This document shows, piece after piece, positions 5,000-61,191 of a stretch of DNA of 61,672 nucleotides. This stretch comes from Seison nebaliae (taxonomy: Eukaryota). The translations under genes and the position numbers were made by a program. The DNA lies in the NCBI GenBank assembly GCA_023231475.1, contig JALJEE010000678.1, forward strand, positions 1-61,672, given 5' to 3'. Within the stretch, counting starts at the first letter, position 1; every line of letters begins with the position of its first letter. The notes below the pieces were generated by a model, which ran no database searches, was not told where the DNA came from, and worked only from the letters and a program-made list of their open reading frames with translations.

Positions 5000-6457
5000 A
5001 TGAGATTGATGACGACAACTGATGATATGGATGAGAAATCGGTGAAATCGAAACAATATGAAGAGGAAACGGAACAAAAGCGAACGACATTGACATTGGA
5101 CGATTATGAATGGAATGAAGAGACAAAATCATATATTCCGAAAATGGACGATAATTTCTTGACAAATTATCTTTTGAATTATGGGGGGAATGAGAAAGAA
5201 GAAGATTCGAAAGTTCGATACGATAAAGAGATCGGTCATTATGTTTATGAGGATGAAGAGACGAAACAATTATTTTATTTCGATGAGAAGAAGAACGATT
5301 GGCTTCCTCATGGTGACAAGACGAAATTGTACGAGAAATATCGATATGTCGATGAGAAAACGGGAAAATATTTCGTTTTTGATATCGAGAAAAAGGAATG
5401 GGTCGATTTATCAACAACAACGGAATATCTCGATCCAGTGACAAGTTAATTTTTTAAATTTTAATATAATAAATAAATATAATTTATTTAAATTATTAAT
5501 TAATTATTTTTTAATTTAATTAATTTAAAATTAGAACAACGTTATGAATTGAATGTGTTTGAGAATAAGTGGGAGGAAGTGAATGAAGATGAATATCAAA
5601 AGAAATTGAGAATGAAAAGGAATTATCAGATGAAAGAAGAGAAGAAGAATGAGAAGAAACGTCAAGCGGAAGAAAAGAATCAATGGATCGAACAGAATGA
5701 AGAAAATATCCGTCATGTTTACGTAAAAGGATTAACGAAAGAAATTGACGAAGAAGAATTCATTAAATTAATGGAGAAATATGGTATCATCGATGTTGAT
5801 ATAGAAACGAATAAGAAGAAAGTGAAATTATACAAAGAAAAAGGATCGAACGAATTGAAAGGTGACGCACTTTGTTGCTATGTCAGGAAGGAAAGTGTCC
5901 AGTTATGTATCGATATGTTGAATGACGTTGATTATAACGGGAAAGGAAATAATCTGATAGTGGAAGTGGCGAAATTTGAAATGAAAGGCGAGAAATATGA
6001 AGCACCGAAGAAATCGAAGAAAAGGAAACAAATGATAAAGAAGAAGATGGAGAAGAATGAGAAATTGTTGGATTGGATCGATCGACCAGAAATCAAACGA
6101 CAAAAACAAGAACGTGTCGTTGTTATGGAAAACGCGTTTGATAAAATTTTAATTATGAAGAAATTAGTGAAAGAAGAAGAGAAATTGAAGAGTTTGTTGT
6201 TGAAGGAAGCACGAGATGTTGGGGAATGTCAACGAGTCGAATTTCATTTGAAGGATGAGAAATCGATTGGACTAATTTATTTTAAGACGATCGATATGGC
6301 TGATATGTTTGTGAGTTTATATGATAAAAAGATATGGAAAGGACGATCGATTAATTGTCATAATCTTGATATCACAAAAGAATCTTATAAAGACACCAAA
6401 TGTGATGATGATGATGATAAACGATTGGATGATTTCCTTGAATCAATCGAAGAAGAA

Positions 6458-6490
<33 letters not shown>

Positions 6491-6514
6491 GATGATATTA
6501 TTGATGAGAAATAA
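5000..6514 (+). CDS. HTATSF1: HIV Tat-SF1/Cus2 splicing factor (2 exons; intron 5445-5534)
   Basis: RRM1 VYVKGL..FIKLMEKYGII..KVKLY..KGDALCCYVRKESVQL, then VEVAKFEMKG, KLLDW and a UHM-like RRM2 with an acidic tail. The GTTAAT..TTAG intron joins the two ORFs in frame (VT-K-QRYELN). Confidence 0.92.
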
Positions 6515-7371
6515 TTTTGAAAAATTTAAATAAATTTTATTTATATGCAAATTATTAATTCCATGTTGATTACCATGTCAGTCGGTGTAGTGAGGAATTG
6601 TTATAATTCACCAAATTAGACGGAAGAAAGGAAGGACAAAAATTAAATTAGATTTTTTCTTGTTTACATTGCGCGACAATGAGAAGGATAAGATGATGTT
6701 GAAAGATTTACGATAAATACTTGTTAAAATTTAATTAAAAAATTAATTGTTAAGAGAGAAGTGTCTTTGAGAGAGACATTACTAACGGTTGTTGATTATG
6801 AGAAGGAATTTATTCGTTCTCCATTTTGAGAGTTTTTTCTTGAGTAGAAGAGAAATTTTCTCCATTCATAACTATCTCATTAGCCGAATAAGTTAGATGT
6901 TAAGGGAGTAAATATATTATCTACAATAATCTTATCTATATATATCGTAAGTGATTACGTTACGGGATCTTTAACTCACTTACCTCATTCACTAGAGAGT
7001 GGGCGATAGAAGAAAGTGAAGGAAATTGTTGAAGGAATATGTGAAAGAATGGTCTACTCTCAATGTTGAACGTGTGAAAGTGTGAAGGTGATATTTGACG
7101 ATACCATCACCACAAAACATCAGAGAACAATAATAATTGTTATTGGTTTGGGTGTTGGGAGAAGGAAAGACGAAACACTTATTTAATCTTTCTGATGAAG
7201 ACAAACTGCTTTCTCAAAATGAATACAAATCGGAAGAAGAAGAAAGTTCGATTTTTAACAGTTAATAACTTTCTTCAATTATCTGATGTCGATTGACACC
7301 TGGTCATTCATTCCATTCCTGTTTAGACGATAAATGACGTCGACTTCTTATATTACCATCGGAATGAACAT

Positions 7372-10300: not shown

Positions 10301-13300
10301 CTATATCTATTACGTCGACTTGGATAATTGCGTTGAAGAGTGTTCATATGTATATAATTTCCATGCATTCCATTAAGAAGGTTGTCTACTGTTTCTTCTT
10401 TTGAAGAAAAGAAAGTAAATTTTCTACCTTTTAATCTGACTTTCTCCATCGGTTCTCTTCCTATTTTAATTAGTCATATTAAACTCACTTTTTCTTAAAT
10501 GTTATTCTAAGGCGAAATATTTCTTAATAAATTTATCAGTCAATTCTCTGACATGTTCACTAAGCTTAGTTTAATGTAATTCTCAATATCAGATGATCGT
10601 TAATTTGCGATATGTTCCGAAATTTTCCCACCATTCAACTTACGTAATAAAACTATTTTCTGGAAATCGCTCCATCTGTTAAGTTATTGAAGAGTTGTTG
10701 TTAATATGGTAAATTATCGGTTGTAGCATTAGCTATCATCTGTTGTATCGAGAGGAAGAAGAAGAAATTAATTGTATTCAATTTATATCGTCTATTTCTT
10801 AATGATGTAATCATGATAATGGTTCTGTCCTCTCTCACCTTTTTCTTCGAAGTTTCAATTTTGTGGAATTAATGGAAATTTTGCATTATCCTTCCTCTTC
10901 TCTATTTCCGTATGATGGAATGAAAAATTAAAAGAATATTCATAATCATTTTTCTTTTCATAGAAATCAATTAAGATTTCTTCAGTTCCCCTTCCAAAAA
11001 TCCTTCCCAACAATTTCTTTTTCTTTTCTGAAAAAGAATAAACTCCTTTCAACAAGACACTTTCCCCACACCCCCCACCGTAAGGAGATATTTTTATGAA
11101 CGCTTCCTACACTCCAATTTGATGCATGAGTACCAAAACAATAAGAAAATATTCAAAAAAAAATTTTTCCACGAAAATAAAAAGGAGTTGAGAAATATGG
11201 AAATAATCGATAATTTCAATTGATTAAAATCAATTCAATAATTATTAAACAATTAACATGGGAAATCAGCCCACACGGAAAGATATTAAATTAGTTGGTG
11301 GTAATATCGGTTTGAATGGAGTCGATCAGAAAAGTATCTTACAAGATCGTTCCTCATTGGAAACAGGTGAATGTCCACTCACTTCACAATCGATGAACAA
11401 CTTGAAGACTATTCCACGATCAACATCAGAATATCAATTCGTTCAGACATACAATCCATTAATATGGTTCAATGATAACGATGACAAATCTACTGAATCA
11501 TTACGACAAATTAAACGACGACATTGCTCCTCCACAATACCGTCACGAAATCATTCGAGTGATGTTTCCTCTGGAATAGGTTCCACCACTCTTATCTCCC
11601 AACCAAACGATGATACGGTTAATATGAAGAAAGTGGATTATCGTAATACACTTCTGGAATTATGTTCTTGTGCTCGTCGTATGCCGATAAGTAATAATGA
11701 TTATATTTATTTCCATCCGCCGATACGATCGTCTTCGGCGTCGAAAAGTCGACGACATAATTCAAAAAAGAATAAATATCAAACTAATTCAACGAGACAT
11801 ATCACTTGGTTGGATGAGGCAGGAGATACGATAATCGAATCATCATTTCTTGCCAAGAATAAAAGTGTTCCAGTAAAACGGAAAAAATACAACGACATTG
11901 ATATATATACGTCGGATATCCATTTGTGTTGTAGTAGTAAACGAAATTTGGCTAATTCACAATTAACTCGAAAACCTGATGCATCAATAACCACTTCAAA
12001 TGATAATGATAAATCAAATATTAGTGAGAGGAACCATCATCATTATCATCAACATCATCGTCAAAATGAATTGGATGATATCTATCCCAATGTTTATCAA
12101 CAACAAAAAGTACTTCAACCACAAGAGCATTACAGTCAACAAGATGATGATCCACAATTATTTTCGGCGAACGATATCGATGAAATGGAGGATGATAATA
12201 TGATGAGTCGTCGTCTGATAGAAAATATTGAGAAAAATGGAAAATTACAAATATCTGATGATTCTCTTCCATCTAACCGATATTGTGAGACATTTTCTCA
12301 TCACCAATCGAAGACAATGAATAATTTGTGTGAACCGATAAAGAAAGTAAGTTTCAGTTACAAGGATGCTGCGCCTGTAACGAAATGTTTGTTAAATTCG
12401 AACGCGGGAAATTATCAGCATTCGAGGACGGTCTCTCAACCACCTCGTCATTATTGTTCGACTACTTTAAATGAACATTCATCCAAAGAATCTCTCATGA
12501 AAGATACAGCCATGGAGAAGTATTTGATGAATGCAATCAATGAGAAGAAAGTTATTTTCACGCAATTATCTCCACATCTCAACAATAACGAATCTATCAA
12601 TTCAAAATTGGACGAGATCTCAAATGATTCATTAGACAATCTATCAAATTCCCAATCCAACGACCATAAAAACAACGATTATTGCGAGAGTAAGAAGATG
12701 AGCAATCGTCAAAATATTCCGATGGAAAATAAACCGTTCGAAAATAATCTTTCTGAACAGAATCGTCGTTTATTGGAGAAATACAATTCGTTACTTCATT
12801 CGATGGAGGAGAAACAAATTAATTGTCGTTACAGTAGCAGTACGTCATCATTAGATCAGTTACATAATGATGTGTATAATTTATGGAATTATCTTCACCG
12901 CAATGGCTTATTGTCAGACAACAATGATGTTGATAGTTATGATGATGATCAGCGTAAAATAATTATTGATGATATGGAATCGCATAATGATGATAATTCG
13001 AAACATCAATTTGCTATTTGTGAATATGAACGAATAGTGTCTCAAGGTTAACTTATTAGGTGTATTTTTCGAAATAATGGAACACATTATCATCTTCCAT
13101 TTACGTCGTCATTCTATCATTTGTTCATGTACTCGAAGAATTTGTCCATTTTACTCTTCTACTTTTTTTCTTTTAGTTCTAATAAATTGTGAGATGTCCA
13201 AACTGATTTAGATCTTCCTTTCCATTAAGATCGTTCATTCAAATATTTTATCTTCCCATCACAAACTTTAAGTTGCCCCCCATAAAAAAGAGAAATATCA

Positions 13301-16300
13301 TCGTTGTCGTTTTGATGGAAAACAACAGTCGCACCCATCAAATTTTGTGTCAATTCCAATTAATAATTTTTTCGAATTTCCTCAAATTTTGTCCAACATG
13401 AAATTTGTCTATCTTCTCATCTACAACTTTCTTTATCATCTGTTTCATCTTTAAAAAAATTTCTTTTCCTTCCAATTGATCGAACTGATTTGATGATTTG
13501 GTAACAATTTCTCATTTACTTTTCAGATGATGGCGAAGTGGATAATGATATAATTGGTGAAGATACAATGAACGAACATTCGTCAGATGAAGGAAAAGAT
13601 GAAGATATTAAGAAAGATGATTCAATCAATAAACAATCATCGGAAGACGGAATGTCGAAAGGAGAACGTCATTCGACTCAACAAGAAACTACGTTAGAGG
13701 AGAAACATTTGTCGAATATATCAAACGATTCTAGTGTTACTGAATTGAAATCGATAATGTTTGTATTCATTTTCCCCCATCATCTTCCCATATTATACAC
13801 GCCTTCCCACCTATTCACCTATTATGCCAATTACCATTTTACGATTAGGTTAAGGAGTAATAGAGTAATTCTTTTAGTCTTTTTGTCGTGGCGACGACAT
13901 GTTTTTTTTTGAGGAAAAACAATTAGAAAAACTCTACAAAACAAAAAGTTCGTTAATTCGACTTGTTATGAATATTTAATTAATATTATTTGAATTGATC
14001 CTTGAAACGAATAGTTTATTATACGACAAATACCTTAATAAGGTCATATCAAATAATTTATTGTTCGAGTAGAATGGAAATCGCGCTGGAAATTAATCCT
14101 AACCAGCTTCCTAGTTACATGATTAACAAATTGTTTCGATTAGATTGATTTATTTTCCATCTTATCAAATCAAATTGTGACATAATATCAATATATCGTT
14201 ACGGGAAAAGAAGAAATGACTCGTCTTACATATTAAGGTTATCTGATCGATCGTTCGTTCTGATCCATCGACTTATTCATTCTCAACAAAAAATTTCTCA
14301 TCATCGAAATTCAAATGAAAGAGAACGAATAGATGGATAGAAGAACCGGAGAGAGTTTTGAGTAAATGCAGAAAAGAAAATTTAATTTATGGGAAAAACT
14401 TCAGTTTGTAGCTAGTCTATCTGAACTAAAACTGTCGTTATTGATTTAGTTGAAAGTGGCGGAGATTCTCCTCTCTCTATTATTGCACTTATTGATAATT
14501 ATCCTGAATAATAATCATCATCTATATAATAATATTTAAATTGATGATAATCTATTTCGTTTTTTTTTCTCCCAACGTGATATTCCTTTTCAGCTATCCA
14601 TTTGCTTCTTTCACATGTACTTTTCCGTCACTTATAAAGATTGATGGTAAGTGATGTCTGAACAGATCGAAAATGAAGTAAAAGGATGAAAAGAATAAGC
14701 TTTCTTCTAATCTAAAACAACGTAATTTTCTCATTATTTCCAATAATTGTCTTTTCACACGAAGAATGAGTGTAATTCTCCACGGTAAATTTATTATTAT
14801 TGTTATATTGGTGGACGAGTTTCATTCTTAAGAAATTAGAACTGGTTACTGTCCATTAGTAATTCCTTTTCTCTTATCGATATTCTATTATGTCTTTATT
14901 TGTTTTTATGAGATTATGAATGAGTGAATGAATGAATGAAAAAAGAATGAAATTAATCGACGATTCTAACTAATGTCTTCATTTTTAAGTATCGATCACA
15001 ATGAGTTGAATGAATGAAGATTAACTTTTAATCAAATGCAAACATCAAAATTGCCTCACTGAACTACTATCGAGACAATAAACATAATAGTATAAATTCT
15101 CATATTGATATGATTAGGACATAAGAAGTTGAATTTTCATCTAACATTGTAAGAATTCATTTATTGGCTAAACAAAGATTGTTATGTAATCAATCATTAT
15201 ATTCAGTTAAATCTCCTTCTAGATCATTCATCGAATATTCAAATGAATGTGTGGAACTAAATTTATGGAAATCGATAATAAAATCCACAAATTTTCAAAT
15301 GTAATAAATTTAAATTAGAATTCTATTGAATTGAGATTCCTAGAGAATCAATTAGAATTTTTTAATGATTTCCGTTTAAAAAAGAGCAGTTCAATGATCG
15401 GAAATTACTAACAATTAATTCCAATATTGAATGTTATCTAACGAAGAATAATATTCTCATTTTTAAATATCTGATATTTTCGATTGAACATTAAGATTAT
15501 GAGACGTAACAATGAGATTAAATGAAATGGATAAAGTGGATATTTTCATTCATTATTCATAATGATGACTCATTATCATTATGATAATGGAAAGAAACAT
15601 TTCATATTACGATGTAAATAATACATTATTGTTCGCTCGTACTTCCGACAAACTTTTCTTCTTCATCATTATCATCATCATCATCAGTTTAGCTTTCATC
15701 AAAGTCTTTGATATGATTCTCTATTTTTCGAGTGTATTTCCACAGTTTCTGTACTGTACTCTCCCTTTTTGTCCTTTTTCTCATTCATCTGTTACTGTCA
15801 TCATCAGTAACTTTTTTCATCAGTAAACAACTTTTTTTCAATGTTGCCAAATTCGAGACGGAAATTATTAGTTAAGAATTACTCCTCGCCTGTAAGCAAG
15901 AATGGAAATTTCTTCGATATTATCATTTCGATGAATGTTATATGGAAGTCCCGAAGTGATCTACGAAATCGATTCCGGTTGTTTCGATTGAGGAAAACAT
16001 GAGAAAAATTCTCCATAATGAAAGTTAAAATCGAATAAGTATATTTTTATTATGAATGGCGATGATGGTAGTCAATCAAAGTAGTATCGTCATTTCCGGA
16101 TTACTTCGCCCCTTATCTAATGTTGATCATTGGAACATTTATTTTTGAAAGTTACGATAATAAGTAAATCGATAAAAGTGGTAAGAGTAATGAGGAAATG
16201 GTTTGGTGGTTGCTTCATTTCAAATTTCGTCTTCGATAAGTGTGTTAGAAGAGGCAATAATAATCGTCAGTTGGTTAAGGAATGAGAGGAGTATGATGAT

Positions 16301-19300
16301 GATGATATGTAGAAGGAAATGAATGCAAATCCTTCGGTAAATGTTTTAATTGTATCGAATGGCGAATGGAAAGAAAATAAATTTTATTTTTCTTTCCGAT
16401 CTTTATCGATTGATCCTCTTTTTTTGAGTATTATCGTTATATTGTCTGTTAGTAACAGATCGTTATTTCACTCGTCACAACAATATCATCATCATCGTTC
16501 GTCTTCTTCCGCTTATGTAATTTAATACAAGTCTTTCCCTTTCAAATCAATCGATGTCCTTGTGCATTTCTCACTTTATATTAATTTTGGTTCTGGATTA
16601 AATTTACATTAATATGGAATTAAAACTCATCGGTATATGTGTTATCATCATAAGATTATAAGATCAGGATTTTATCATAAAAGAAATCGGAAGGAAATAA
16701 ATAGAATAGAACCGAAGTTTGGTAGAAGGAAAAATGCAATTTCATCGATACGATGAATTGGAGAGACGACGATGTAACCAAATGAAGAATATTGCACAAT
16801 TCCTCAATCTTCGAGAATCGTTATCGCCGGAAATGAGGAAAGAAGAAATTCCGAAGAAAACGATACCATCATTTGTGCAACATTTCCCTGATTTTGATGA
16901 TAGTACCACTTCAACGAATCGTGATACATTTATGGAGTATGATGTTGAGAATGAAATGGAAACTTCATTGGATAACAGTCGAAGGAAATTTGAGAATGGG
17001 AATTATTGCATCATACCAGATGATGGTTGTGATGAGAATAACAAGGATGATAATCGGATGGATGGTTTCGTGGTTGATGATGTTGATGAGAGTTTGAGAC
17101 GTATTAATCATTGGCAGAAATACCAATTGAATCGATTGTATACGTATCTGTTGAATGAAGGAGAGGAAGATGAATTGAGGGAGAAGAAAGTTGTCGATAA
17201 TATTGTCCTTAAACATTCGAATAATCGAGACGTAACTTCCGATCATGACGAATCAATAGAAATCAAATGGAATCGCTTATATGAGAAATTCGATTTGGCT
17301 AATGAATTGGCAGATTCTGATATCGGCTCCGAAATTGCGTCACCATCATCACACTATTCACCGACACTCACCTACATCACAAATGAAAATATGGGAAATC
17401 AACATTTTCCTTCTTCAACGAAAAAACATCTCCATAATCAGACGCACGATACCATACTTCCAAACAACAACAACAACAACACTAAATTAATTGATTCAAT
17501 CGTAACGGCCATACCGCAAAATTGCGGCATTCATCGTATGGAAGGATCTATAAGTAAACTGAATATTGATGAGAATTCGTTTCTAGAAAAAATTGATCAA
17601 CGAGATCCTTCCCAATTCAATCACATACCGTCTGAGCAAAAAACGAATTCTTTTAGAAATTTAAAAAGTTTGAAGAAGAGCATGACAAGGTATAGTTCTC
17701 ATTCATATTTAAATATTTTATTTTTTTTTATATTATATTATATTTATATCCAAATATTTTTTTTTTCTTTTCAAAAAAACATTTTCTTTATTCCTCCTTA
17801 TCATTAGTAAATTAGTAAGGAATCTTTGTAGTTTTACATCCTCGTTTGGCATTATTTTCTTGATTATTAATCAGATTCACTAACAATAATTCGAATTCTA
17901 ATATTAATTATTCTTTCTTCTTCCTTCTTCATTTTTCTTCGTCATCTGCTTCCCATATTCGTGATAATGGCAAATTCAACAATAATAACAATAACGATTT
18001 GGTTATTATTATTATCCGATGAACAATTGGTGTGAAATTGTGTGAATCGTTGATCAACTTAACAAATTATTTGTCAATAAACAAATCGTATAATTTGTGA
18101 ATATTCCTTCAACCTTCAACTTTCGTCTTCTGTAATCAACTCACGGTTTTTCATCACAAATTCTATTCTTATCAATTCTTATGATCGTTTTTCCATCGGC
18201 CAATATCTACGTCAATTATATCTCAACATTAAACTTCTATCACGATTGTTTATCATCGTGATTATCGGTGCATCGGATGGAACATCCGACCTCGTAAATA
18301 ATTGATGATGGAATATCAATTAATATTACATTCTTCCAATCATCTGTCTATCCTACCACCGATGGAACTACACACTCCAAAATTTTAACAAAAAAAAACA
18401 ATATCGTTTTCCGCATCGATACATTTAATGGTTTCAATTTGAAATTGTCCATGTTATAATATCATTTCAATAACAATCATTTCATCCATTCACATTCAAT
18501 AACAACAATAACAATGATTGAAACTATTGTAATTTTTTCATAAATTTTTCTATCGGAAAATGTTCATCATTTCCCATCAAATTAATTTTCCTCAATACAC
18601 TTTCAATTTTTGGATTTTCCATTTATCCCTATCATAATCGTTTTACGGAAATGAAATTATTTGTCGTATTATTGTCATAATGCCTTCATCTCGTCATTCG
18701 TTGCAACATAATCGATATCTCTCATTAAATGATGATGACATAATGGTCGATCCAAAAAAACAACAACGATTGAATGAATTTATGATATATCGACAATCAT
18801 CAATTATGAAACATTTGTCACGTGAATATCTGCATATCAATAGAACGTTGCCTCAATCCCAAAATTCCTTTCGATCAAACAGTTTGACTGAGAGGAAGAA
18901 CGATGAAACAATCAGTCAACCCAACAATAGGGATGTCTTCCGACATTATAATGACGAGGCTGATGATATCAAAACGCGATTTGATCACGACATCGAAGAC
19001 AAATGGAACATCCAACATGTTCCATTTATCGATCAAGAAGATAAGAAGTCGACCGAATTCCATAATGTGCCGGAGAAACATGACAAACATTATGATGATG
19101 GACCACAATCTATAACTGATTATGTTACAGGACATCGAAGTTCTTTGTTAGGAAGTCAGAAAGATCGACGAGCATTCAACGAACAACAAAAGCCGATGGA
19201 TGATGAAAACAATTTGTTGGAGATGATGGAACGCCCACAGAGTGTTATGGAAAAGAAACTGAAAGTTAATGTTCGTCCTGTTAGTTGTCTTTTCTCCTTC

Positions 19301-22300
19301 ATTTCATCCTCATTATTTAATCTGATTTAATTCTCTCCTATTAATATCTAGAGCGATGAATTCCATAATCCGATGCCACCCCTTGTTTATTCTTCACCTT
19401 CATCAACTATGGGCAATTCGACAATAACCGTAATGAAGTTTCTTTTCTTCTTATTCATCATTTCCATCATTCAATGATCCAAACCAGACGATCTCGATCT
19501 GCTTGTCAACCTCCCGTCAAGAACGAGAAGAAATCCATCGATTCCACCAAGAATGATTCGCCCACTAAATATGTCGTTCCCATATCTCCCACACAACGTC
19601 AGAATCTTTACAAGCAAATTCAAAATGGAGGAGACATTCCCGTGTTGGGTTTAAGGCCATTATATGCCAAACAACAAAATGAGAAAACGAATAATTTCAA
19701 GAAATTATCTTCCATTGAAGGTGATCATTTACCGATGAATAAGTTTGAATCGAAAGATGCTAATTACCGTAAGCAAGACGAAGTCGAACGAAGGTCTCAT
19801 AATCCTCATCAGTTTGAGCAACAGCCAAAAACACAAATTCCCAAAGAATACTCAACAAATCGAACTATTGAAGTACAGAACAAGAGTCAAAATAATACAT
19901 CGTCTTATCCGATTCCTTCTGCTTCATCGTCGTCGAAAAAAGGTTCGTATCAACTTTATTTCCTCCACATCATTGTTTAGACGAGGTAGTACATTGCACC
20001 TCGTTTCCTTCGAGGATTTATTCTATTGAGATCTATACACAAATCATCATCCGAATTAAACAGTAAGATAAACAAAAAAAAAGAAGAATTGATAATGCAA
20101 AATAATTGCAACAACAAAATGAATTCCCAGTTATTCGCTAGAAATAAATCTTTAATTGTTTCTCTCCTTTTAAGTAATTCGTTAACATTTACATTGTCAC
20201 CAAATTAGATTTCATAACGAAAATAAAACTTATTCTCCTTTCGACGAGATTGTTTCGTGACATCTGTCCCTTTACATTGCCCTCCCTCCTACTCATAAAT
20301 CTCTTTCGATACTCCCTCCGACCAACTCATCTTTCCAATGCGCTATGTGTTGACGTTAGTGAGATAAATAGATAGTTGTCACATAATTTATTGTAAAGAA
20401 TACGCTATCTTCATATCGTTCACTCGAATGACGGAATGAATTTCAAACGATTCCTGAATCGTCTTGACATCTTCCGATTTGTGTTGAAGGAGATTCATTC
20501 TGTTTACCATTTCAGTTGATTAGTCATAACAAAAGTATTTTCTTTTTCAAGTTTATCGAAGTCAATATTGAACAAACAATATTCACTAGTCATCTCTTAT
20601 TTACAATTGGAACTTTCGATGAAAAGATGATGGCACAATTAATTTGACTTTTATTGTTAATGATATTTTCCAATGACACGAGATGAGGAAGACGAAAATA
20701 TTAAGTTCTTCTCACTGTTCCATTCTTCCATTCGTTATAGAAACATGAAATTTTCATATAAAGTGCATATATTCGATCGGACTTAATGGAACCTTTAGAA
20801 AAGAGTTGATCGATGAATTGAAACTTTTTGTTTCTTTATATTTCATCAATGTTTTTCTAAAGAAATAATTGAACAATTAAATACGTCGAAAGAAATTGTA
20901 TATTAATATCATGAGACTATATATTGTTGACGAAGAAGAACTTAATGGACGAAATAGAAGAATTATATTGAATCTTCATAAAAAAAAATTGACGGAAATT
21001 GAGAAATGTAAATCATTAGGGAGCAATATGTATCCCAATTCCATGATGTCCTTATATGACATTTAGTCGTTCTTCTCCGAATAATTTTTCGAACAAGAAA
21101 AATATAAATTCTCATTGAAATATCTGAAAAAAGTGTAATAAATGAATGAGAATGATCGTAACTTTTCTTTTCTCCCGTTCATCTCGAATGACATCTATTG
21201 AATGGATATTTGTTAATAATTCTCCTATCTTATCTTCCGTCCTTCAATGACAGTTACATGTCAATTGTCGATATATGATATGTCAATCTTCTTCTTCTCA
21301 ATTTATGAACGATGTGTCGGGGAATTATCGATAATGAAATTTTGTTACAATTCACTCGAAATATAAATAGAACAATTAATTATGTTTCATATTCATTTCT
21401 TTCACTAGAAATTCTTCGCAATTCCTTAATTTGATTCAGTGGGCGAAGAAAACCATTTTGATTTATATCGTTTATCTAATTATTTTTCTCTTCTTCCATG
21501 TCATGAAATAATCGTATTTTAAATTCATCTAATTCTCATTCCATTACGAATTAAAAAGATTATTTAATTTGTTTTTCTTTTGACTCAAACTCATTATAAT
21601 ATTTTATGTAATCTCATCATTATTGAAGGAATCGTTATTCATTTTTATTCATCTTCTTTTAAAAAAATATTTTTTTGAAAATTTTTTTTTCGGTGGCAAT
21701 AAATTCCACTTTGAAATTTTTGGTCAGTAGAATTTATTGGTAATAAAAAAACCAATAAAATACCGGTCTCATACTCGTTTTTCACTTTGACCGATATTTC
21801 GATATTTAATATTCGATATTTCCTTATTTGAAAATGATTAGATGAATTTTATACAAAATCACTATATGATGTCTGCCATCAACTTTCGTATTTTTATGAA
21901 TTAATTTCTGAGAGTCGTTTTTGAGGAAGAGAGTCGGATGGAAGAAGAAAATGGAATTGATTTCACTTTTATGATGACGAGTAGAAGAGATAACTACCTC
22001 CATCTCGACTTTTTCATGTCATCCAGTTATTCGATTTTATTCGAATTGTTTATCTCTATGACAATCGAGTGTGATTGTTGTGAGTGAAAGTTTTTTTCGT
22101 TCGTCCAACGACGAGTCGCTTCAGGATAATTCTTCTTTGGCTGATAAGGTCATTCGATTGTTTATCGTTAAGCGAATATATGACTATCATTATTCCTTAT
22201 ATCTTTGATCGTTAAAATGGAAATCTGTACATCTTCTCATCATCTCCATTCTCGAGGGAGATGTTGTCGCAAGAAGATCGACAATCCAATATATGTGACA

Positions 22301-40176: not shown

Positions 40177-40242
40177 CAAATATTTTAAATAATTTTACTA
40201 ATCACCTATTTGTAGCAGTCAATAAAATAGGTTTTCAATAAA

Positions 40243-42734
40243 ATGACGAACACGAGTGATAATGTCGATATCGATATTATCAAAAAAACGCAAGCCATGT
40301 TAAGTAAAATTATATCCGCTCCAGCATTGACTGAGAAGTTATTGAGTAAACCACCAGTCAAATATATACAAGACATAGTTCTCTCAATTAATCGAAGTGC
40401 TAATTACATGAATGACTTATATTCGACCGAAGAACTTGATACGAAATATTTGAAAGTTCTTCATTTTCACTAATCGCATTTGAGTTCACGTTTTTCATAA
40501 TTTATAATTTTTAAGATATCGGTCGAAAATCGGACTTCGTTTCTTGACAAATTAATTTATTATGTAGGTTCATTTTCTATCTTCTATTAATGGAAATCAT
40601 TTCATTCTCAGCATATGCGAATGGTGAAAAACTTGGAGTTAAATCTACTCATATTATTGCTGGAACGAATGCAGATAAAACTAACGAACTTCTACAAGGA
40701 TTGGCACGAGCTGTAATCGAAAAAGTTTCAAATTCCATTCACAATTTTATGGCATATTTTCATAAAATTAGGTTGATGACAAGAAAGCTGTGAGGAAGAC
40801 GTTAAGTAAAATGGAAAAGAAGAAATTGGGTACAGGAGATGCAACGACACATCCTCCCAAAGCACCAACAGGAACTACTACGATGACAATGAATGAGAAT
40901 GAAGGTAAAGAAGAGAAAAAGAAAAAAAAGAAGAAAGTGGTCGATGAATCGCATGAGAAAGACGAGGAGAAAGAAGAACGTCCTAAAAAGAAGAAAGATC
41001 GTCATCATCATAACGAGAATGGAGAGGAGAGTGAAAAACATAAGAAGAAGAAACATCGAAGAAAAGACAATTCGAAACCGGATGATGATGAAGAACAAAC
41101 CGGATCTCGAACACATTCCAACACGAACAAGAAAAAGAAGTTTCTGATTAATTTAAACATAATAGGAAATATAATTTTATGTGTTTTAGGAAGAAGAGAA
41201 CTGATAATTCGGATGATGAAAAAGAAGTTAGAACAAAATATTTCTTTTTCCATATTAAAATGTTTTGATATGATTCCATTAAAACATTAAAAGGATCTCA
41301 GTGTGATGAGTGAGAGTCGTCATTCGAATAAGCATAAGAGAAAAAGACATCATAGGAAATCGATTGAAGAGAGAGTTTATAGGAACATAAGATCTGCTGG
41401 TACTGCACCATCATCAGCATCGAAAAAACTATTAGGTAAGTTTGTGTAATTCAAAAAAGTGGAATATAAAAATTTTGAGTCTTGAAATATTATTTGCTTT
41501 TAATTCTTATGATTTTATTCTGCTTTTTCCGCACTGTTAGAATAATCGATCATCTCGACCGTTATCAGCCAAATCGAAAAACCGAACGGTACATCGCCAA
41601 GGTATTTCTTGCTTTTTCCGCCTATTTTATTCTTACATTTTATCATTGATATTCATTAAACTTTCACAGATTCAATTGATGAGTTAAAATTTTTTTTTGA
41701 AAATTTAAAATTTTTATTTATTTTAATTATTTAATTTAGAACTGGAACTACAACAACTTCCGCCACTAGACATGGAAGGAAATCATCTGCAGTTCAAGAA
41801 GAAACTGAAATGATGAAAGGGGAAGAAGAAGAAGAGAAAGAGAATGAATTCGATCAACATCTCACAAGATCGTCAAGACCGAAAACGGCTCGACCACCTC
41901 CGCCCAAATCAACAAAAACAAAAATCGAACATGAAGAACCTGCAGTCAGTCAACCAACCGGACCATATGTGACAACTTTAAGTTATTATTTTACAAAATA
42001 GATCATATTAATTCTTTTCAGATAATACAACGGAAGGAATACCGAATAATAATGAACATGTCAAATTAGATGATGACGATGATGATGATGATGATGATAA
42101 GGACTTTATTGTACAAGAAGAGATCGAAGATGAGAAGGATATGTTCGACAATTTAGAAGAGGAAATTCAAGACGACGGATTGGAGGATGGTGGTCTTGTA
42201 AAAAAGATGAAACAGAATGCCCAAAATTATCAAGCTATGACAGAAGACGATGAATTTGTTTCTCAATTATTTTTTAAATTTTTTTCAAAATTTTTCTTTT
42301 TTCAGAACAATAAATTTGATTCAACTCAAATGAAAGAACGTGAAGCAATTGGATTGAAGGTGAAAGAAATGCAGAATAGTATTCAAAATTTAAGTAAAAG
42401 GTAAATTAAATTTAAATTTTTTCAATTCTATAAATTCTCTTCCATAATCTCCAGTACTCAACCATTGGCACGTATTTTGGATTTCCTTCAAGAGGATTTA
42501 GATACGATGCAACAAGAAAAGACACGATGGTCTGCAGAAGCCAAAAGGAATTTGGAAGAGATTAAAGCGAAGGAATATGAAAATGAAACGAAACTTTTAC
42601 CATTAAAGAGTGACCTCTTGAAAATGGAGGCAGATGTGGGAAATATGAATCAGAAGATCGCCATCCTAAAGAGGAAGGTGATGAATAATGATGTACGATG
42701 TGGTAAGATAATAATGTCGATTTTTGAAAAATGA
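40243..42734 (+). CDS. TRAF3IP1: Intraflagellar transport protein 54 (TRAF3IP1/MIP-T3/DYF-11), multi-exon
   Basis: N-terminal CH-like domain IKKTQAML..PALTEKLLSKPP..IIAG..KTNELLQ, KE-rich middle, RPKTARPPPP, GGLVKKM and C-terminal coiled coil PLARILDFLQEDLDTMQQE. Confidence 0.93.
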
Positions 42735-45111: not shown

Positions 45112-46815
45112 TTACCGTTCATCTGAATGTTTCCTTTTCGAACGATTTCGATATTCTCTCCGATGTGATTTATGATGAGAAGATTTATGACGTCTCTCAC
45201 GACGATCATCATCATTCCTAGAAGATGAACGTCGTCTACGACTCTTCTTATTTGCATGGTCACTCCTCTCATAAGAATCAGGAGATGTATGTCGTTTCCG
45301 TAATGTTTTATTCTCCGAATGATCTACATATTAAAATTTAACAAAAAATTTAAATAAGATTATAAGAAAATTCTAACCACGATGTCTTGACGATTTATTT
45401 CCTTTCAAGAGAGCGATAACGTCATTCCTTTAATAAAATTTAATTGATAAGAAGAGGAAAATTTGAAAATGAACTCTTTAGCATTATTACGAGAATGATC
45501 GGGATTGTCATTCCAATGTCGAGGATGGAATGAAGAGGAATGATCATTTCTATTTTGATGATTTTCATTATAATGAGAATGACGATGATTATTCCGATTA
45601 TCGTCCATCGAATTATTGATTGGATGAAATTGGGATTCGGGTTGATTGGGTTGATGAGACGGTATTATTCTATTGAAAAATTAATTTTAATAATAAATTT
45701 TTTTAAAATAAATGAAGAAAACTAACGAATTTATCGGCATGAATGGTTGTTGAGTGAGTAATGGAACATTTCCTGGTGGTGGACCAAACCATGGAATCAT
45801 CGAAGGATTATCACCCAATTGACCCATCAAACCCGCGTTATGTGGATGATGATGATGATGATCATTATTTTGATGATGATCTTCCTCCATTCCAGGTGGA
45901 CGTGTCAAATCATAGACAGTTGTTTCCGAGTCATTATTTGACTGATTCATCGTATTCATTAAAGTATTCAATTGTGATTGATTATTCAATCCAGTAATTG
46001 GAGTCGATATCGAGTTATCGGGTGGTAATGTCGTTCCCATTTTGAAGAGTCGTTGAAATTGTGATTGAGGAATATCATTCTTTTTCGCTTGTTCACTTAA
46101 ATAAGAAAAATTAATAAAAAGGATAAATAAAAAAAATGATAAACTTATATCGATTATAAATGAAATGAATTAATGGATCATTTGAAACGATTGTATCTTT
46201 ATTTCCATTTACATCTTCTTCAGCGTCTAAGAATTTTGTCGCCTAAATATTATTAATTAAAATTAATTTTAAAAAAGAAAAAAGAGAAAAAACATTTTTA
46301 TTAATATGATATCCATTTAGGATTCTCAATGCACGTTGTCGTCGACAATATTGTGACCAGGATTCTTCATTAAAACCATAATTGAAATAATCAGTCAAAT
46401 CAGCATCTGGTGTCTTCCACGGTTTCTCTTTCTCCGGTAATTTATACAAATCATAATCATAAATTATTGTCGTTCCCAACGTTCCCAATTGATTGATATC
46501 AACTCCCGTTTTTGTTCTCTTATTTCCCACTCCGAGAGCTGGAGCAGATATCGAATTCGAATTAACATTCCCTTCCTCTTTCTTCTTATTTTCCGTACTA
46601 CCACTCAAATAGAAAACGACACAATCATCTTCCTCTTCTTCATCATCGTCATAATCATAATCGGAATCATCATCTTCGTCATCATCTTCATCATCGTTCG
46701 TTAATTTCGTAACTAAATCTTCCGACGTCGAAAAGTTTTCCGTATTTATTTCCGACGGAATTGACAATGGTAGATCGTGACTGATGATAACTTCATCCAA
46801 TTCTGGATTTACCAT
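45112..46815 (-). CDS. FIP1L1: Pre-mRNA 3'-end processing factor Fip1 (6 exons)
   Basis: Fip1 motif EKPWKTPDADLTDYFNYGFNEESWSQYC, acidic N-terminus, Pro-rich middle and Arg/Ser/His-rich last exon ending KRKHSDER*. Five GTT..AG introns keep the frame. Confidence 0.92.
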
Positions 46816-48503: not shown

Positions 48504-48989
48504 ATGAATTTCTCGATTTTCACTTTCGTTACCGTTCTACTTTGCATCAGTTCGTATTAGCATAATATTCATCTATTTATCATCAAATTTATCACAATTC
48601 ATCTTTCTCATTAGATATCGGATCATTGAAAGCTGATGTCAGCTGTTACCAATGCGATGGTGAACAAACGTGTGTCTTACCTGAAGTAAATAACGTTCCA
48701 GTGATTACCTGTAAACATCAGTGTTGGGTTAGGAAATATTGAAATATGAATAATAATATTGATATTTGATAATAATTTGAATATTTTCTTATAGAAAGGA
48801 TATGTCTTACATAAAGTCTATCGAGGTTGTGGCGATTTAGCATGTAATGCTCTTGTGAAAGCTGAATTGAAACCGCTGGGTGGGAATTTGTGTTGCAAAA
48901 CGGACAAATGCAATTCTGGTCTGAATATTCAATCGTCCATCATTCTCCCTCTGATCTTATCGTCATTGGTTCTTATGAGAATGTTATAA
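48504..48989 (+). CDS. Ly6/uPAR (three-finger) GPI-anchored protein, 117 aa; exons 48504-48549, 48615-48727, 48795-48989 (not in the ORF track)
   Basis: Spliced product MNFSIFTFVTVLLCI-NIGSLKADVSCYQCDGEQTC..TCKHQCW-KG..RGCGDLAC..CCKTDKCNSG plus a hydrophobic tail: signal peptide, 10 Cys, CCxxxxCN motif and GPI-type C-terminus. Confidence 0.88.
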
Positions 48990-49661: not shown

Positions 49662-49957
49662 ATGGTTCTCAGAAGATTATTAATGTTAATAAAATTTCTT
49701 TATAATTCTTATATTCTACAAATTTCAGGTATTTAACTCACAACGAAGAATTGATAAATAGTTTAGCGCAGAAATTCCGACCGGCGGCTCGACGTTTATT
49801 GGCAATGAAAGATGAGACAGAAACTAATCGTCGTGTTCAACAACTGAGTAATATGAAGAAGGAATGGGATGAACAAGGTCGAATGTACATCAACCAATTC
49901 TTCAAACAAGTCACCGACAACGATAATCTAAAGAAACGTTCACGTAATAAAAAATGA
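49662..49957 (+). CDS. NCBP2AS2: NCBP2AS2/HIAR-like microprotein (intron 49685-49728)
   Basis: Spliced N-terminus MVLRRLLM-YLTHNEELINSLAQKFRPAARRL resembles the family pattern MVLRRLL..L.....L...L..S.P.RRAA. Confidence 0.72.
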
Positions 49958-49997
49958 ATTAAAATAAATTTCTGTAACGAATGGAAAATAATATCGT

Positions 49998-51563
49998 TTA
50001 GAAGTTTGAAGAGACGGGAATTGATGTCAATGATTCTTTGAATTTCTCTCGGAAAGACAGATACCAATCGCTCACTATTTGCATATCCTCTTTAGCGAAT
50101 TGTTGGGGGAATGTGTGTTGTAACATGTCGTCATGAGATTTCCTTAATCGGAAATCTTTCTGAAGACAATCCTCAACGAAACTCGTCAACGATTTTGTTG
50201 GAGTTCGTTTCGCTGTCGCTGTTAATCTCGGCGCATCACCATTCACAATTTCCGATTGTGTTTGAAATGATTTATGACGATATTTATAATATGGATTCTT
50301 TCCATGAAACATCTCATAAACGGTAATTCCCACACTCCAAATATCAGTTCGTGACGGATTTTTATTGATGGGAAGTTCGATCAGTTCCGGTGCAACATAA
50401 GCATAAGACCCTAACGTATTAGATGCACGTTGTGAATTGAGTAGTAATCCACTCACACTGAAATCACATAATTTGATTTGTTTCCCATTATCATTTAGTA
50501 GAATGTTCGACGGTTTCAAATCACGATATTCTAATTGATGTTCCTTCCTCAAATAAGAGAGAGCGTTCAATATCTTCAAATTGTCATGAAATAATTAAGA
50601 AAGTTTAATGGAATGAGCAACTGCAATAATTGTATGTCCAATAACGAATTCCGGTAATCCATCGTCATCAAAATATTTTATTAATTTATCGAAACACGTA
50701 TCCATCAATTCGAGACAGAGCCACAACTGAGAATGATTCATATCAGCCGAAATATGACCATAAGACAAGATGATATAAGGATGATTCTTCGCTTTACTAG
50801 TCACGAATAAATCCATCAAAATTCGTCGATCCTCCTGGAAGATTCCACAACCACTCATTTTCTTCAAAATTAAAAAAAAATTTTAAAATTTTAGAAAATA
50901 AAAAAAAATTTAAAATTTTAGAAAATAAAAAAAAATTTAAAGTTTTAGAAAATTTAAAAAAATTTTAAAATTTAAGAAAATAAAAAAAAATTTAAAGTTT
51001 TAGAAAATAGAAAAAAGTTTTAAAATTTTGGGAAATAAAAAATTTTTTTTTTTTTTTTTTTTTTTTAAATATAATAATAATATGGAAATTATTGGAAAAT
51101 AAAAAAAAATTTTAAATTATAAAAGGAAAAAAAAAATTTTAAATTTTTTTAAAATTTTTTTTAAAAAAAACGAACTTTTACCGCCATTAATTTGTTGGAT
51201 GGTTTATGTCTCATTTTGTACACGTCACCATATGCCCCTTTGCCCAATAGTTCCAGAACATCGAAATGTTCAAAATCGACGTCGTCATATCGCTCCTGAA
51301 AGGAAAGAAATGTCATTAGAGATTGAGAGAAATGAACTTGATTCGGGAACATTAAACGACCCGACTCTTCGATCAGTTTATCTCGTTGCGCACGAATCTC
51401 CACACTAGACGTCCACCCAGCGGAGAGGAATGAGATGAGTTAGTGAAATAAATTCCAACTCTGTCACCGAACCATTCTGGATGTTGGCTGGTGTTGTGGT
51501 TTGAACGGAAATGTTATCCGATACAACGTCGATCGCACATGGTCGTCGTCGATCGTTGGTCAT
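49998..51563 (-). CDS. MAP2K7: MAP kinase kinase of the MKK7/MKK4 group; introns 51459-51405, 51337-51296, 51175-50862, 50621-50574
   Basis: N-terminal docking-like RRRPCAI, LGKGAYGDVYKMRHKPSNKLMAVK-KM, RRILMDL, WLCLELMDTCFDKL, RDLKPSNILL, IKLCDFSVSG.L.NS and DIWSVGIT. Confidence 0.85.
50866..51170. repeat. A/T-rich ~28-bp tandem repeat filling the long MAP2K7 intron
   Basis: Units like aaaattttagaaaataaaaaaaaattt repeat ~6-8 times, with a T25 run. Confidence 0.8.
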
Positions 51564-53586: not shown

Positions 53587-55339
53587 TTAATTTTCAACAA
53601 GTTTTAAAACTTTATTAGTTTCTATCTCTCCCTTGGGAAGTTTCCAATGTTTCCTGAATTGTTATTGATTTATATTTCTTAAATAAAAATTAAGGAATGA
53701 AAAAATAACCGTCGTTGTTTCAATCCATCGAAAACATTTAGAAATTGTATTTGAATTTCAATAACTTGTGCACGTTTACTGTTGAACCTAATTGCAGGTA
53801 TATAATCGGTTAATTGTCGTTCTGTTGTATAAAGTTTAGATAATTTCCTTTCTCCACTAATACTGCCACTATTAAATGAAATGAAGTGAAATTTCAATGA
53901 TAAGTTGAGAGAGGAAGTTAAACTATAAGAAATTTGTCCAAACTTCTTTCGGACTATTTTCTTGGAATACGGTAAAGTCTAAAGATATTATCGTTGACGT
54001 GAAAGTGTTCAATCCAATCTCTATTTGAAAATGAAATACTTTTCAAAAGAAATTTAACAAAAAAATTTAAAGAATGAATAACAACAAAAAGGATATATTC
54101 CATTTGTATTTAAATAAAACTTAGACATTTTTTCTTTGATAGATTCCCGTCTAAAAACTCGAGAGAAAAACTGACGAGCTAAATCCAAAAAATTTATAAA
54201 TCTCTTCTTTCTCACTTTCTCAATTTTCCATTGTTCCCCTAACATCACGCAATCTTCTTTCTCTTCACATTCGATACATTTTCCCTCGTCGAATAGTTTG
54301 AGAGATGTACATCGATAAGCTCTAAATATACAAATATCACCATCATAATGGAAATTTCTTGGATCATATAATTGACCGAGAGCAGTGGCTTCTTCATATA
54401 ACGCTATGGATGAAGTATAAAGTTTCGTAGCTCGCGTATGTGAACATGAAACATATGACACTAGAAATAAATTATTTCCTTCAATTATTTCAAAATTGAA
54501 CTCGATCGTCGATTTTTACAACCAACTTGATTATGTCCTCCATTGACAAAGATGTCGACGGTACCCCAAATTTTGTTGGAACCAAATTTGAACATATTTG
54601 AATCTGTATGAACTACCTGAACAAACGACGCATCACTTTCGTCTAACGTCACCGCTTTCGATTTCCCTTCAAATGATAGTCCAGCAGGATCGAGTGCTTA
54701 GAAAACGATTATTTGATGACTATTTAAAAGAATTAAATTCAACCAATTATTTTATTGATTCCTTTAAAAAATTTACCTATTCGACCAGCGAGATGCGCAG
54801 ATAAACTAAATGATATTAGATCGATATGTTCCGGTAGGAATTTCGGATATCTCCTCGTCATTTTCAATAAAAATTGAACAGTTTTATCTGCAATTTCATT
54901 AATATATTGAACGGCAAGAGCGTATGATAATGAGGCGACTGAATGCCAATCAAGAATAAAGAGATTTATTTTGATCTTTTATAAAATTTAAGCAAAATTT
55001 AAATTTAACAATTTACCAACGTTACTTATTAAGCGCTGTTTACTTAACTGTATCCAATCGGAGTTAATGTTTTGGAGATAAGCGTGAAGAAACATTTTTG
55101 TTCGTTCTTCTTCATTGAAAACTGAAGAAATTTTTTCAAATTCTACATTTGTTAATTTCGATAAATTGATTATACAATTTTTTCCATTACTGTATACGAG
55201 ATAAATAAATGAAGAACAATATTTTACGATTAGAACAATAAATTAACCTACCAATGACATGTAATTTTGTATCGAAAGTAAATGAATAAGTTTCATGAAT
55301 GAAAATCCAGTACGAAAAGAAGAGGATTAAATTAAACAT
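53587..55339 (-). CDS. Secreted pancreatic-lipase-family protein with a C-terminal PLAT-like domain (8 exons)
   Basis: Spliced product has a signal peptide, TKMFLHAY, NLFILDW, HIDLISFSLSAHLAG, KII-ALDPAG, LDESDASFVQVVHTD, GTVDIFVNGGHNQVGC, CSHTRA, FYLNT..YPFC-LFHFQIEI. Confidence 0.85.
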
Positions 55340-59678: not shown

Positions 59679-60164
59679 ATCAACTCATTACCACATCATT
59701 GACATTCGCTTTGTGGCTTATCATCCTTCGGCTTCTCAATTGAAAGAAAGAATTAAGAAATGTTCATTATTTCTATCACAAAATCATTTATTTTTTTCAT
59801 AACCATTTCCATAACTTGTCTTCATTCCTATTATTCATCTGAACTATATCCTTCAATTAATTTGGGATTAATGGTCCTATTTCATCTAGTACATTTCCAT
59901 AATTATGGATACTTAAACTATATAATTTGATATATGAAAATAATTCATTTCTTATTCTCTGATTTGAATGTTTATTATGGAAATTCTTTCACATAATAAT
60001 TATTGTAAAGAAAACATTAATCATAGAATCATTTATCGTTAAAAAAGCATCTTAAACATCTCGTTAAACAATTAATTTCGCTACTATTCTAGACTACAAA
60101 TTTTTGTTTCAATAATTACAGTTTTTTTACGTCTTTCCAAATTCTAATAATTTTCATAAACTAA

Positions 60165-60314
60165 AATTTATTAGAGGAAAATTTCTAATTATTTTTTTTT
60201 TGAAGGAAAATTTCTAATTGTGAAATTTATTAAAGGAAAATTTCTAATTATGAAATTTATTAAAGGAAAATTTCTAATTATGAAATTTATCATAAGAAAA
60301 TTTCGATATATGAG
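60165..60314 (+). repeat. 30-bp tandem repeat (aaatttattaaaggaaaatttctaattatg), ~4-5 copies
   Basis: 30-nt periodicity from 60201 to 60314, plus a degenerate copy upstream. Confidence 0.85.
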
Positions 60315-60696
60315 AATTATTGTGCATAAATTATTTGTTGGAAATTGTTTATGAAAAATATTTAAAAGAAATGATGGTCCTATAATTTTGGGATGTATGT
60401 TGGATTTTTATGGAAGGAATCATTATGGAATTCAGAGGAAGAAAAGTGGAAGAAGAAAAATAAGAAGAAACATTTTGAAATTGATTAGAAGCTTTAATAA
60501 AAAATAATTTTCCTTCAATTACATTCCCTTTGCACGTGTGGAAGATGTTGAACGCATATAACTTTTACATCATTTTCATTTTACATTTGATAAGTGGTCA
60601 AGATACGTGTGAGAAGAAAAGTTGTCAATCGTCATTTTTGCTTTTCTTTAATTCAGATCATCTTCTCATAATTTAACCAGTCCCAATAATTTAGAG

Positions 60697-61191
60697 ATGG
60701 AACAAACGTATATTATGATCAAACCGGACGGTGTCCAACGAGGACTTGTCGGCGAAATCATTAAACGATTCGAACAACGTGGTTATTTGTTGAGAGCCAT
60801 GAAATTCATGCAAGCCTCACGAGAATTGTTGGAGGAACATTACGGCGATTTGAAATCTAAACCATTTTTTCCATCACTCGTCGAATATATGTCATCGGGA
60901 CCAGTGGTCGCTATGGTTTGGGAAGGAAAATCGGTCGTGAAAATGGGACGTGCAATGTTAGGCGCTACCAATCCATTAGACTCAGCACCAGGAACCATTC
61001 GTGGTGATTTCTGTATTGATGTTGGACGGTTCAAAATTATTTTTCTTATTTTTTTTTAAATATTTTCCTTCAGAAACATTTGTCATGGTAGTGATTCAGT
61101 AGAATCGGCGAAGAAAGAAATCGGTCTTTGGTTCAAAGAAGGAGAAGTCACTAACTGGTCTTCTGCCACCACCGGACAAGTTTATGAATAA
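60697..61191 (+). CDS. NME: Nucleoside diphosphate kinase, group I NME (intron 61029-61073)
   Basis: [68 protein letters not shown]. Confidence 0.97.

What the first reader, a model, noticed from the sequence alone, without database searches (positions are those of the whole stretch)
5445..61073. Rewired 5' splice-site code: ~92% of introns begin GTT (U at +3) instead of GTA/GTG
Seen in sequence: across 12 intron-containing genes I placed 59 donors by frame and motif continuity. 54 are GTT (HTATSF1 1, SORBS-like 9, PIGH 2, PLC 12, GT7 2, IFT54 8, FIP1 5, Ly6 2, NCBP2AS2 1, MAP2K7 4, lipase 7, NME 1), 5 are GTA, and none are GTG or GTC. Positions +4 to +6 and -1 are highly variable (GTTAAT, GTTTTT, GTTCGA, GTTGGA), so the signal is essentially GTT. 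Most introns are 40-70 nt. Established knowledge: U2-type donors are GTRAGT because +3 A/G pairs with the U1 snRNA 5' end (ACUUACCUG); +3 U is normally a minority class, though elevated in short nematode introns. AT-richness alone would favour A as much as T. Inference: this lineage has shifted 5'SS recognition, for example through a U1 with a compensating A opposite +3 (ACUAAC-type), a changed U6 ACAGA box, or protein-driven recognition (U1-C/Luc7/TIA1). I do not know of this being described, but cannot exclude it.
Basis: partly seen in the sequence, partly recalled or inferred. Interest (0 to 1): 0.92.

Follow-up and report, generated by a model that had tools for sequence, protein, structure and literature searches.

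The report
Rotifer introns begin GTT, not GTA
In this stretch of the marine rotifer Seison nebaliae, 50 of the 53 introns placed from the DNA begin GTT instead of the usual GTA/GTG while the neighbouring letters keep the normal pattern, so the animal's splicing machinery, most likely its U1 RNA, has likely changed one letter to match.

Summary
Confirmed. Protein hits name the organism as Seison nebaliae (Rotifera). I placed 53 introns: 50 GTT, 3 GTA, against 41-45% GTT among background GT sites (p about 1e-14). A model blind to +3 picks GTT in 47 of 53. Homologues favour GTT at 9 of 10 junctions with a non-GTT rival. The deposited PLC model has 12 of 12 GTT.

The signal is not bare GTT: -2A, -1G, +4A, +5G and +6T stay enriched in register, +4U is depleted, and a +1 shift is rejected. 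The consensus is GTAAGT with +3 alone swapped. Background also favours GTT over GTA 2:1.

Best mechanism (inferred, about 0.5): a U1 snRNA with A at position 6. Rivals are a U6-side change (METTL16 is scored missing only in Seison among 25 rotifers and acanthocephalans) and protein-driven reading. No RNA reads, no snRNA and no sister-taxon donors could be examined.

Closest precedent is Entamoeba GUUUGU with a co-evolved U1. This scan noted GTT donors before in protists (Bonamia and one unidentified), not in animals. My searches found no paper on Seison donors.

The parts
5445..5534 (+). HTATSF1-like (RRM) gene, 1 intron, donor GTTAAT
13047..25556 (+). SH3 (SORBS-like) gene or genes, 5 placed introns, all GTT (donors 13047, 19280, 19438, 19943, 25500)
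   Evidence: Frame only for four of them; the fifth joins an SH3-like motif. Further long introns were not placed
28090..28332 (-). PIGH-like gene, 2 introns, GTT (donors 28332, 28143)
   Evidence: Frame; family likeness is recalled, Pfam gave no hit; the blind model prefers a GTC at the first
31917..34249 (+). Phospholipase C gene, 12 introns, all GTT
   Evidence: Deposited protein P0121 maps uniquely; homologue P0122 scores GTT best wherever a rival exists
32937..32951 (+). 9-nt PLC micro-exon (32937-32945) followed by a fully canonical GTAAGT donor at 32946
   Evidence: Deposited isoform P0273 maps uniquely
38894..39729 (+). Glycosyltransferase family 7 gene, 2 introns, GTT
40456..42454 (+). 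IFT54/MIP-T3 gene, 10 placed introns: 8 GTT, 2 GTA (41602 aag|GTATTT, 42401 aag|GTAAAT)
   Evidence: both GTA donors are the only frame-compatible GT nearby
41436..41441 (+). Uncertain GTAAGT donor candidate after a possible alternative IFT54 exon; left out of the count
   Evidence: In frame with a stop at the next acceptor
45324..46293 (-). FIP1 gene, 5 introns, GTT
   Evidence: the blind model prefers a GTG 3 nt upstream at one of them
48550..48794 (+). Ly6-like cysteine-rich gene, 2 introns, GTT
49685..49728 (+). NCBP2AS2-like gene, 1 intron, GTT
   Evidence: Only frame-compatible GT; family likeness is recalled, Pfam gave no hit
50574..51459 (-). MAP2K7/4-like kinase gene, 4 introns, GTT
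   Evidence: Exon ends contiguous with the solved MKK4 chain at two junctions
53654..55247 (-). Pancreatic-lipase-family gene, 7 introns, GTT
   Evidence: 5 match deposited P0124; homologue scoring; the deposited model uses a GTC at one junction where homology favours GTT
61029..61073 (+). NME/NDK gene, 1 intron, donor GTTCAA
   Evidence: Deposited P0001; homologues prefer it over rivals by 98 or more score units

Best explanation
Seison nebaliae introns in this window keep the normal U2-type donor register but carry U instead of a purine at +3, likely because the 5' end of its main U1 snRNA has a compensating A at position 6 (ACUUAC predicted to read ACUAAC). Shown: 50 of 53 donors are GTT; -2A, -1G, +4A, +5G and +6T remain weakly enriched; the few GTA donors have stronger flanks. 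Inferred: U1 pairs in the normal register, +3U forms a U-A pair, and +3A is now a mismatch tolerated only when other positions pair. Short A/U-rich introns (median 54 nt) would supply the remaining specificity by intron definition. A minor canonical U1 copy serving GTAAGT-type sites is possible. Untested: the U1 sequence itself.
For: Compared with 169 decoy GTT sites in the same genes, true GTT donors match AG|GTTAGT flanks better (2.18 vs 1.19 of 5, p = 6e-9), and each of the five positions is enriched (p = 0.0002-0.03); +5G is 15 of 50 vs 2 expected from intron background. A one-position flip with flanks intact is what a single U1 substitution predicts (inference). GTA donors carry 3-4 flank matches. 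Twelve GTR sites with 3 or more flank matches near donors are not used in my models. The only published +3U case I found, Entamoeba, has a U1 with the complementary change, and intron-rich Mastigamoeba has a separate one (10.1101/2022.06.08.495308). U1 position 5 faces +4 (PMC10581693), hence position 6 faces +3.
Against: U1 was not seen. Most lineages with atypical donors keep a canonical U1: Saccharomycotina, Giardia, Trichomonas, Micromonas, Thecamonas and Fritillaria, though most of those shifts concern +4. +5G and +6T also pair with U6, so the flanks do not single out U1. A canonical GTAAGT donor is used at the PLC micro-exon. Only three GTA donors support the compensation pattern. METTL16 is scored missing in Seison, which points to the U6 side.
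Confidence: 0.5

Rival explanations
1. [quoted passage not shown]
For: BUSCO table of PMC12256650: METTL16 is Missing in Seison and found in the other 24 syndermatan genomes (one fragmented), while SNRNP27K and PRP8 are Complete. +3 faces U6 G44 and purines interact with it only weakly (PMC11732430). Roy and Bowser note that GUUUGU could pair better with U6. Retained SNRNP27K tolerates +4A without METTL16.
Against: METTL16 loss elsewhere shifts +4 from A to U, not +3. Here +4U is depleted (15 of 50 vs 26 expected, p = 0.001). 356 of 954 BUSCO genes count as lost in Seison, 76 on its own branch, so 'Missing' may be a false negative. U6 ACAGA was invariant in 240 fungal genomes.
Confidence: 0.2
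2. The snRNAs are canonical and proteins (U1-C, LUC7, TIA1-like U-binders, PRP8 or SNRNP27K variants) impose +3U during intron definition of short U-rich introns.
For: Canonical snRNAs with transformed donors are the commoner outcome. SNRNP27K mutants alter +3 preference in C. elegans. Introns are short and about 50% T, with no branch-point motif above shuffles. U5-40K, LSm2 and SPF45 are also scored missing in Seison.
Against: General U-binding predicts U enrichment from +3 onward, but +4U is depleted and +7 to +9 match background. The papers read give no case of a protein flipping +3 to U genome-wide.
Confidence: 0.2
3. Selection at +3 is relaxed and mutation bias (T-rich introns, TpA avoidance) fills the position with T.
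For: GTT outnumbers GTA 2:1 in the window; Val and Leu codons avoid A endings.
Against: Background gives 41-45% GTT, observed 94% (p about 1e-14); neighbouring intron positions are 30-66% T.
Confidence: 0.04
4. Annotation artefact or one repeated element: true donors are nearby GTR sites, the register is shifted by one base, or the introns are copies of an introner.
For: 21 of 50 GTT introns have a frame-compatible GTR within 36 nt; no RNA confirmation; mean intron-pair similarity is slightly above shuffles (17.7 vs 16.4-16.8).
Against: Blind model, homologues, PDB contiguity and deposited models agree on GTT. A +1 register needs +6G, seen in 1 of 50. The best intron pair scores no higher than shuffles, junction repeats are 0-2 nt in 51 of 53, and there are no terminal inverted repeats.
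Confidence: 0.06

Closest known systems
Entamoeba GUUUGU(U) donors with co-evolved U1 (ACAAAC); Roy and Bowser, bioRxiv 10.1101/2022.06.08.495308
   Same: Near-universal U at +3 in GT-AG spliceosomal introns.
   Different: Entamoeba is intron-poor, changes +3 and +4, and has a strict six-base motif (88-90% GUUUGU). Seison is an intron-rich animal, changes +3 only, has +4U depleted and degenerate flanks (23 different hexamers among 50 GTT donors). Its U1 is unknown.
Mastigamoeba balamuthi GUGCGC donors with U1 ACGUAC (same preprint)
   Same: Intron-rich lineage with a one-base change in donor preference.
   Different: The change is at +4 (C), in an amoebozoan, and the U1 change was seen.
METTL16/SNRNP27K-linked +4A to +4U switches in Saccharomycotina (PMC10581693; reviewed in PMC11732430)
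   Same: Lineage-wide donor shift; METTL16 is scored missing in Seison.
   Different: The position differs (+4 vs +3), +4U is not enriched here, and SNRNP27K is retained.
Fritillaria borealis non-canonical introns (PMC13326754)
   Same: An animal with a genome-wide rewritten splice signal.
   Different: There GT/AG itself is lost with conserved U1 and U6 sequence, duplicated U2AF and altered m6A; here GT-AG is intact.
Shifted (+1) U1 register donors (label recalled; lead from scan notes e1-9362562 and e1-7385134)
   Same: Donors begin GTT.
   Different: Requires +6G; 1 of 50 here, while +5G is enriched.

Membership tests
U2-type spliceosomal introns | GT...AG termini joining an open frame | tested here: met
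   53 of 53 as placed; unique mapping of 4 deposited proteins
U2-type spliceosomal introns | Purine at +3 (GTRAGT consensus) | tested here: not met
   3 of 53
U2-type spliceosomal introns | Canonical bias at -2A, -1G, +4A, +5G, +6T | tested here: met
   Each enriched over decoy GTT sites, weakly
U2-type spliceosomal introns | Removal shown in RNA | not testable with these tools
   No RNA holder listed; laid runs behaved as DNA or did not cover
Entamoeba-type transformed donor with co-evolved U1 | U at +3 in nearly all introns | tested here: met
   50 of 53
Entamoeba-type transformed donor with co-evolved U1 | U at +4 and a strict GUUUGU motif | tested here: not met
   +4U 15 of 50, GTTTGT 1 of 50
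Entamoeba-type transformed donor with co-evolved U1 | U1 5' end complementary to the new donor | not testable with these tools
   No genome held; no snRNA in the window
Entamoeba-type transformed donor with co-evolved U1 | Intron-poor genome | tested here: not met
   At least 53 introns in 12 genes of one 62 kb window
METTL16-loss +4U switch | METTL16 absent | tested here: inconclusive
   BUSCO 'Missing' in a published table; not searched directly
METTL16-loss +4U switch | +4U preference | tested here: not met
   Depleted, p = 0.001
Shifted-register donors | Consensus moved by one base (+6G, +7T) | tested here: not met
   +6G 1 of 50
Introner elements | Mutually similar introns with direct or inverted terminal repeats | tested here: not met

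The most novel reading that the evidence does not exclude
Seison is an animal whose major U1 snRNA 5' end has been rewritten (A at position 6) and whose intron-rich genome has had nearly all its donors converted to GUU, possibly with a residual canonical U1 for GTAAGT sites and with loss of METTL16 and U6 m6A as part of the same remodelling of 5' splice-site recognition. It would be the first such U1-intron co-evolution in Metazoa that my searches could find.
Probability: 0.42. Interest if true: 0.9.

Novelty: new variant of a known kind. Interest (0 to 1): 0.78.

Why it matters
The U1 5' end and the GTR donor are close to invariant in animals (established knowledge). Published transformed donors are mostly in intron-poor unicellular lineages, and U1 compensation is reported only in amoebozoans. 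An intron-rich animal with a single flipped donor position separates two long-linked traits, low intron number and transformed signals. It makes testable how many introns can co-evolve with one snRNA base, and which step (U1 pairing, U6 hand-over, protein proofreading) sets the +3 preference. The decisive test is cheap: an Infernal search and a junction logo on public data. It also matters for gene prediction in this clade, since models trained on GTR donors may mis-call or miss genes.

Tried and rejected
No whole genome is held. Rfam found nothing in the window.

The run search gave 'no RNA holder listed'. Four of the seven listed runs were laid on 33150-40880. X1 and X2 behaved as DNA, matched 33150-36206 with one difference per contig and showed no splice joints. 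X6 and X7 laid nothing. The rest of the window was not covered by reads.

A homologue search with the IFT54 tail returned nothing.

A scan of metagenome contigs for a U1-like pattern with the predicted change (motif recalled, one base altered) gave 20 matches; none was U1 by Rfam. This says nothing about Seison.

Branch-point motifs were no more frequent than in shuffles. No -1G/+5G see-saw among 50 GTT donors (p = 1.0). The +1 shifted register and an introner origin were rejected. 73 further short ORFs gave no Pfam hit above cut-off, so no extra intron-bearing genes were added.

Ten literature searches found no account of Seison donor sequences or of a GTT-dominated animal. The library lacks most subscription journals. 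The Seison genome paper's main text has 2 uses of 'intron' and none on splice signals in the passages shown; its two supplements gave no hit for six terms. No data on donor usage in bdelloids, monogononts or acanthocephalans was found.

Full report
Organism. Searches with exons of the window returned 100%-identical proteins named Seison nebaliae SNEBB_008664 and SNEBB_008652, and a 97% lipase hit that a look-up named SNEBB_008662, all on a contig of the window's length. Seison is an epizoic rotifer related to acanthocephalans (PMC8351084, passages). The window is about 31% GC. No genome is held and Rfam finds no RNA gene in it.

Observation. I dropped the GTAAGT candidate at 41436 and did not place SORBS-like donors without a matched acceptor; adding the two GTA candidates gives 50 of 55. 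Pfam or PDB supports the PLC, GT7, MIP-T3, Fip1, kinase, lipase, NDK, SH3 and RRM identities.

Circularity. Frame alone is not decisive: 21 of 50 GTT introns have a frame-compatible GTR within 36 nt, and always choosing it leaves 29 of 53 GTT. Four other lines resolve this. Introns with a single candidate are 19 of 22 GTT. A leave-one-out composition model with +3..+5 masked chooses GTT in 47 of 53 and agrees with my donor in 49. Scoring spliced proteins against homologues (1 of 1 for PLC, 5 of 119 listed for NME, 10 of 149 listed for lipase) favours GTT at 9 of 10 junctions with a non-GTT rival, by 5 to 98 units, with one tie. Two kinase junctions run on without gap against MKK4 chain 3aln_A, residues 53/54 and 133/134, by my count from the printed ranges. 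Deposited proteins map uniquely with 18 GTT, 1 GTA and 2 GTC donors; how they were predicted is unknown to me. DNA contigs agree with the window over six PLC donors. No RNA was available.

Anatomy. Among the 50 GTT donors, -2A is 27, -1G 15, +4A 20, +5G 15 and +6T 32. Each exceeds 169 decoy GTT sites from the same genes, combined p = 6e-9. +4T is below intron background, 15 vs 26 expected. Against phase-matched or intron backgrounds, -2A (p = 0.005), -1G (0.03) and +5G (2e-9) hold, while +4A (0.10) and +6T (0.06) are marginal. The consensus is therefore the canonical one with +3 alone swapped. +6G is 1 of 50, which excludes a one-base shift. The three GTA donors have 4, 3 and 4 flank matches against a GTT mean of 2.2; one is a perfect GTAAGT behind a 9-nt micro-exon in a deposited PLC isoform. 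None of the 24 introns of 50 nt or less has GTA, and flank matches rise with intron length (1.9, 2.4, 3.0). Acceptors are TAG 21, CAG 19, AAG 13. No branch motif exceeds shuffles. Introns show no family likeness or terminal repeats beyond a slightly raised mean similarity.

Mechanism. Shown: +3U dominance, in-register flanks, and compensation at GTA sites (n = 3). Inferred: something now rewards U at +3 specifically. U1 position 6 faces +3 (from PMC10581693, passages) and U6 G44 faces it later (PMC11732430, passages and part 1 of section 9). A single U-to-A change in U1 explains the one-position flip most simply and has precedent in Entamoeba, where GUUUGU donors pair with a U1 reading ACAAAC, and in intron-rich Mastigamoeba (preprint 10.1101/2022.06.08.495308: abstract, passages, part 1 of the discussion; supplements not seen). 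I give it 0.5.

The U6 rival (0.2) gains from a published BUSCO table in which METTL16 is Missing only in Seison among 25 syndermatans, with SNRNP27K and PRP8 Complete (PMC12256650: passages, and parts 1 and 3 plus term searches of a supplement cut in storage). It loses because METTL16 loss shifts +4 towards U in yeasts, worms, plants and human cells ([PMC11347140, passages], 87), which is not seen here, and because over a third of BUSCO genes are scored lost in this species. Protein-driven recognition with canonical snRNAs (0.2) is the commoner outcome elsewhere, including Fritillaria (PMC13326754, passages). Drift and artefact together get 0.1.

Comparison and novelty. It works like the Entamoeba system but fails membership on +4U, motif strictness and intron paucity; the U1 feature is untested. 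Ten searches (listed under Tried and rejected) found no description of Seison donors or of a GTT-dominated animal. I also saw passages only of PMC10125929, PMC3464624, PMC11347168, PMC11842720, PMC10158995 and PMC10639083, none giving rotifer +3 frequencies; their supplements were not read and could hold such data. Scan notes report GTT donors in Bonamia and a second U1 in an unidentified protist, and nothing for animals or this genome; I did not check those claims. Whether other rotifers share the bias is open, and it is the main way the novelty could shrink.

Verdict. Real feature, one window only, mechanism inferred. New variant of a known kind; interest 0.78.

Noticed in passing
window, 53 placed introns: 13 of 53 acceptors are AAG (25%); scan notes mention GTT donors with AAG acceptors in Bonamia too.
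   Followed up: partly
window 32937-32951: A 9-nt PLC micro-exon in a deposited isoform uses a perfect GTAAGT donor, unlike the 12 constitutive GTT donors of the gene.
   Followed up: partly
window 41294-41441: Open 142-nt segment inside IFT54 ending at tag|GTAAGT; possibly an alternative or terminal exon, since joining it to the next acceptor gives a stop.
   Followed up: partly
PMC12256650 supplement (BUSCO table): Seison is scored missing for METTL16, U5-40K, LSm2 and SPF45. ZMAT5 (recalled as a minor-spliceosome protein) is missing in Seison and both acanthocephalans.
   Followed up: partly
window 1000-2120: Immunoglobulin I-set repeats interrupted by stops and frame changes without evident introns; looks like a decayed Ig-domain gene copy.
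   Followed up: no
window 36200-36570: Multi-copy repeat: summed contig depth about 20-25 times that of the flanks, with many diverged copies.
   Followed up: no
window 50862-51175 and 60170-60300: A 314-nt almost pure A/T intron with repeated units in the kinase gene, and a short tandem array upstream of NME.
   Followed up: no
window 40257-40386 and 38152-38335: Contigs about 86% identical to IFT54 and Beclin exons lie in the DNA runs; possibly a second lineage or paralogue, useful for comparing donors.
   Followed up: no
nine long ORFs of the window: Gly, Pro and Arg codons prefer A endings (52-59%) but Val and Leu CTN avoid them (14-16%), consistent with TpA avoidance.
   Followed up: partly
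window 3761-4831, 37225-38493, 42958-44838, 51863-53269: MCD, Beclin-1, Frizzled and an RCC1-like gene are encoded in single long ORFs, without introns in their main domains, beside very intron-dense genes.
   Followed up: no
window 47512-47691 (-): Weak SAMD1 winged-helix Pfam hit below cut-off (E = 4e-4); possibly an unannotated gene.
   Followed up: no
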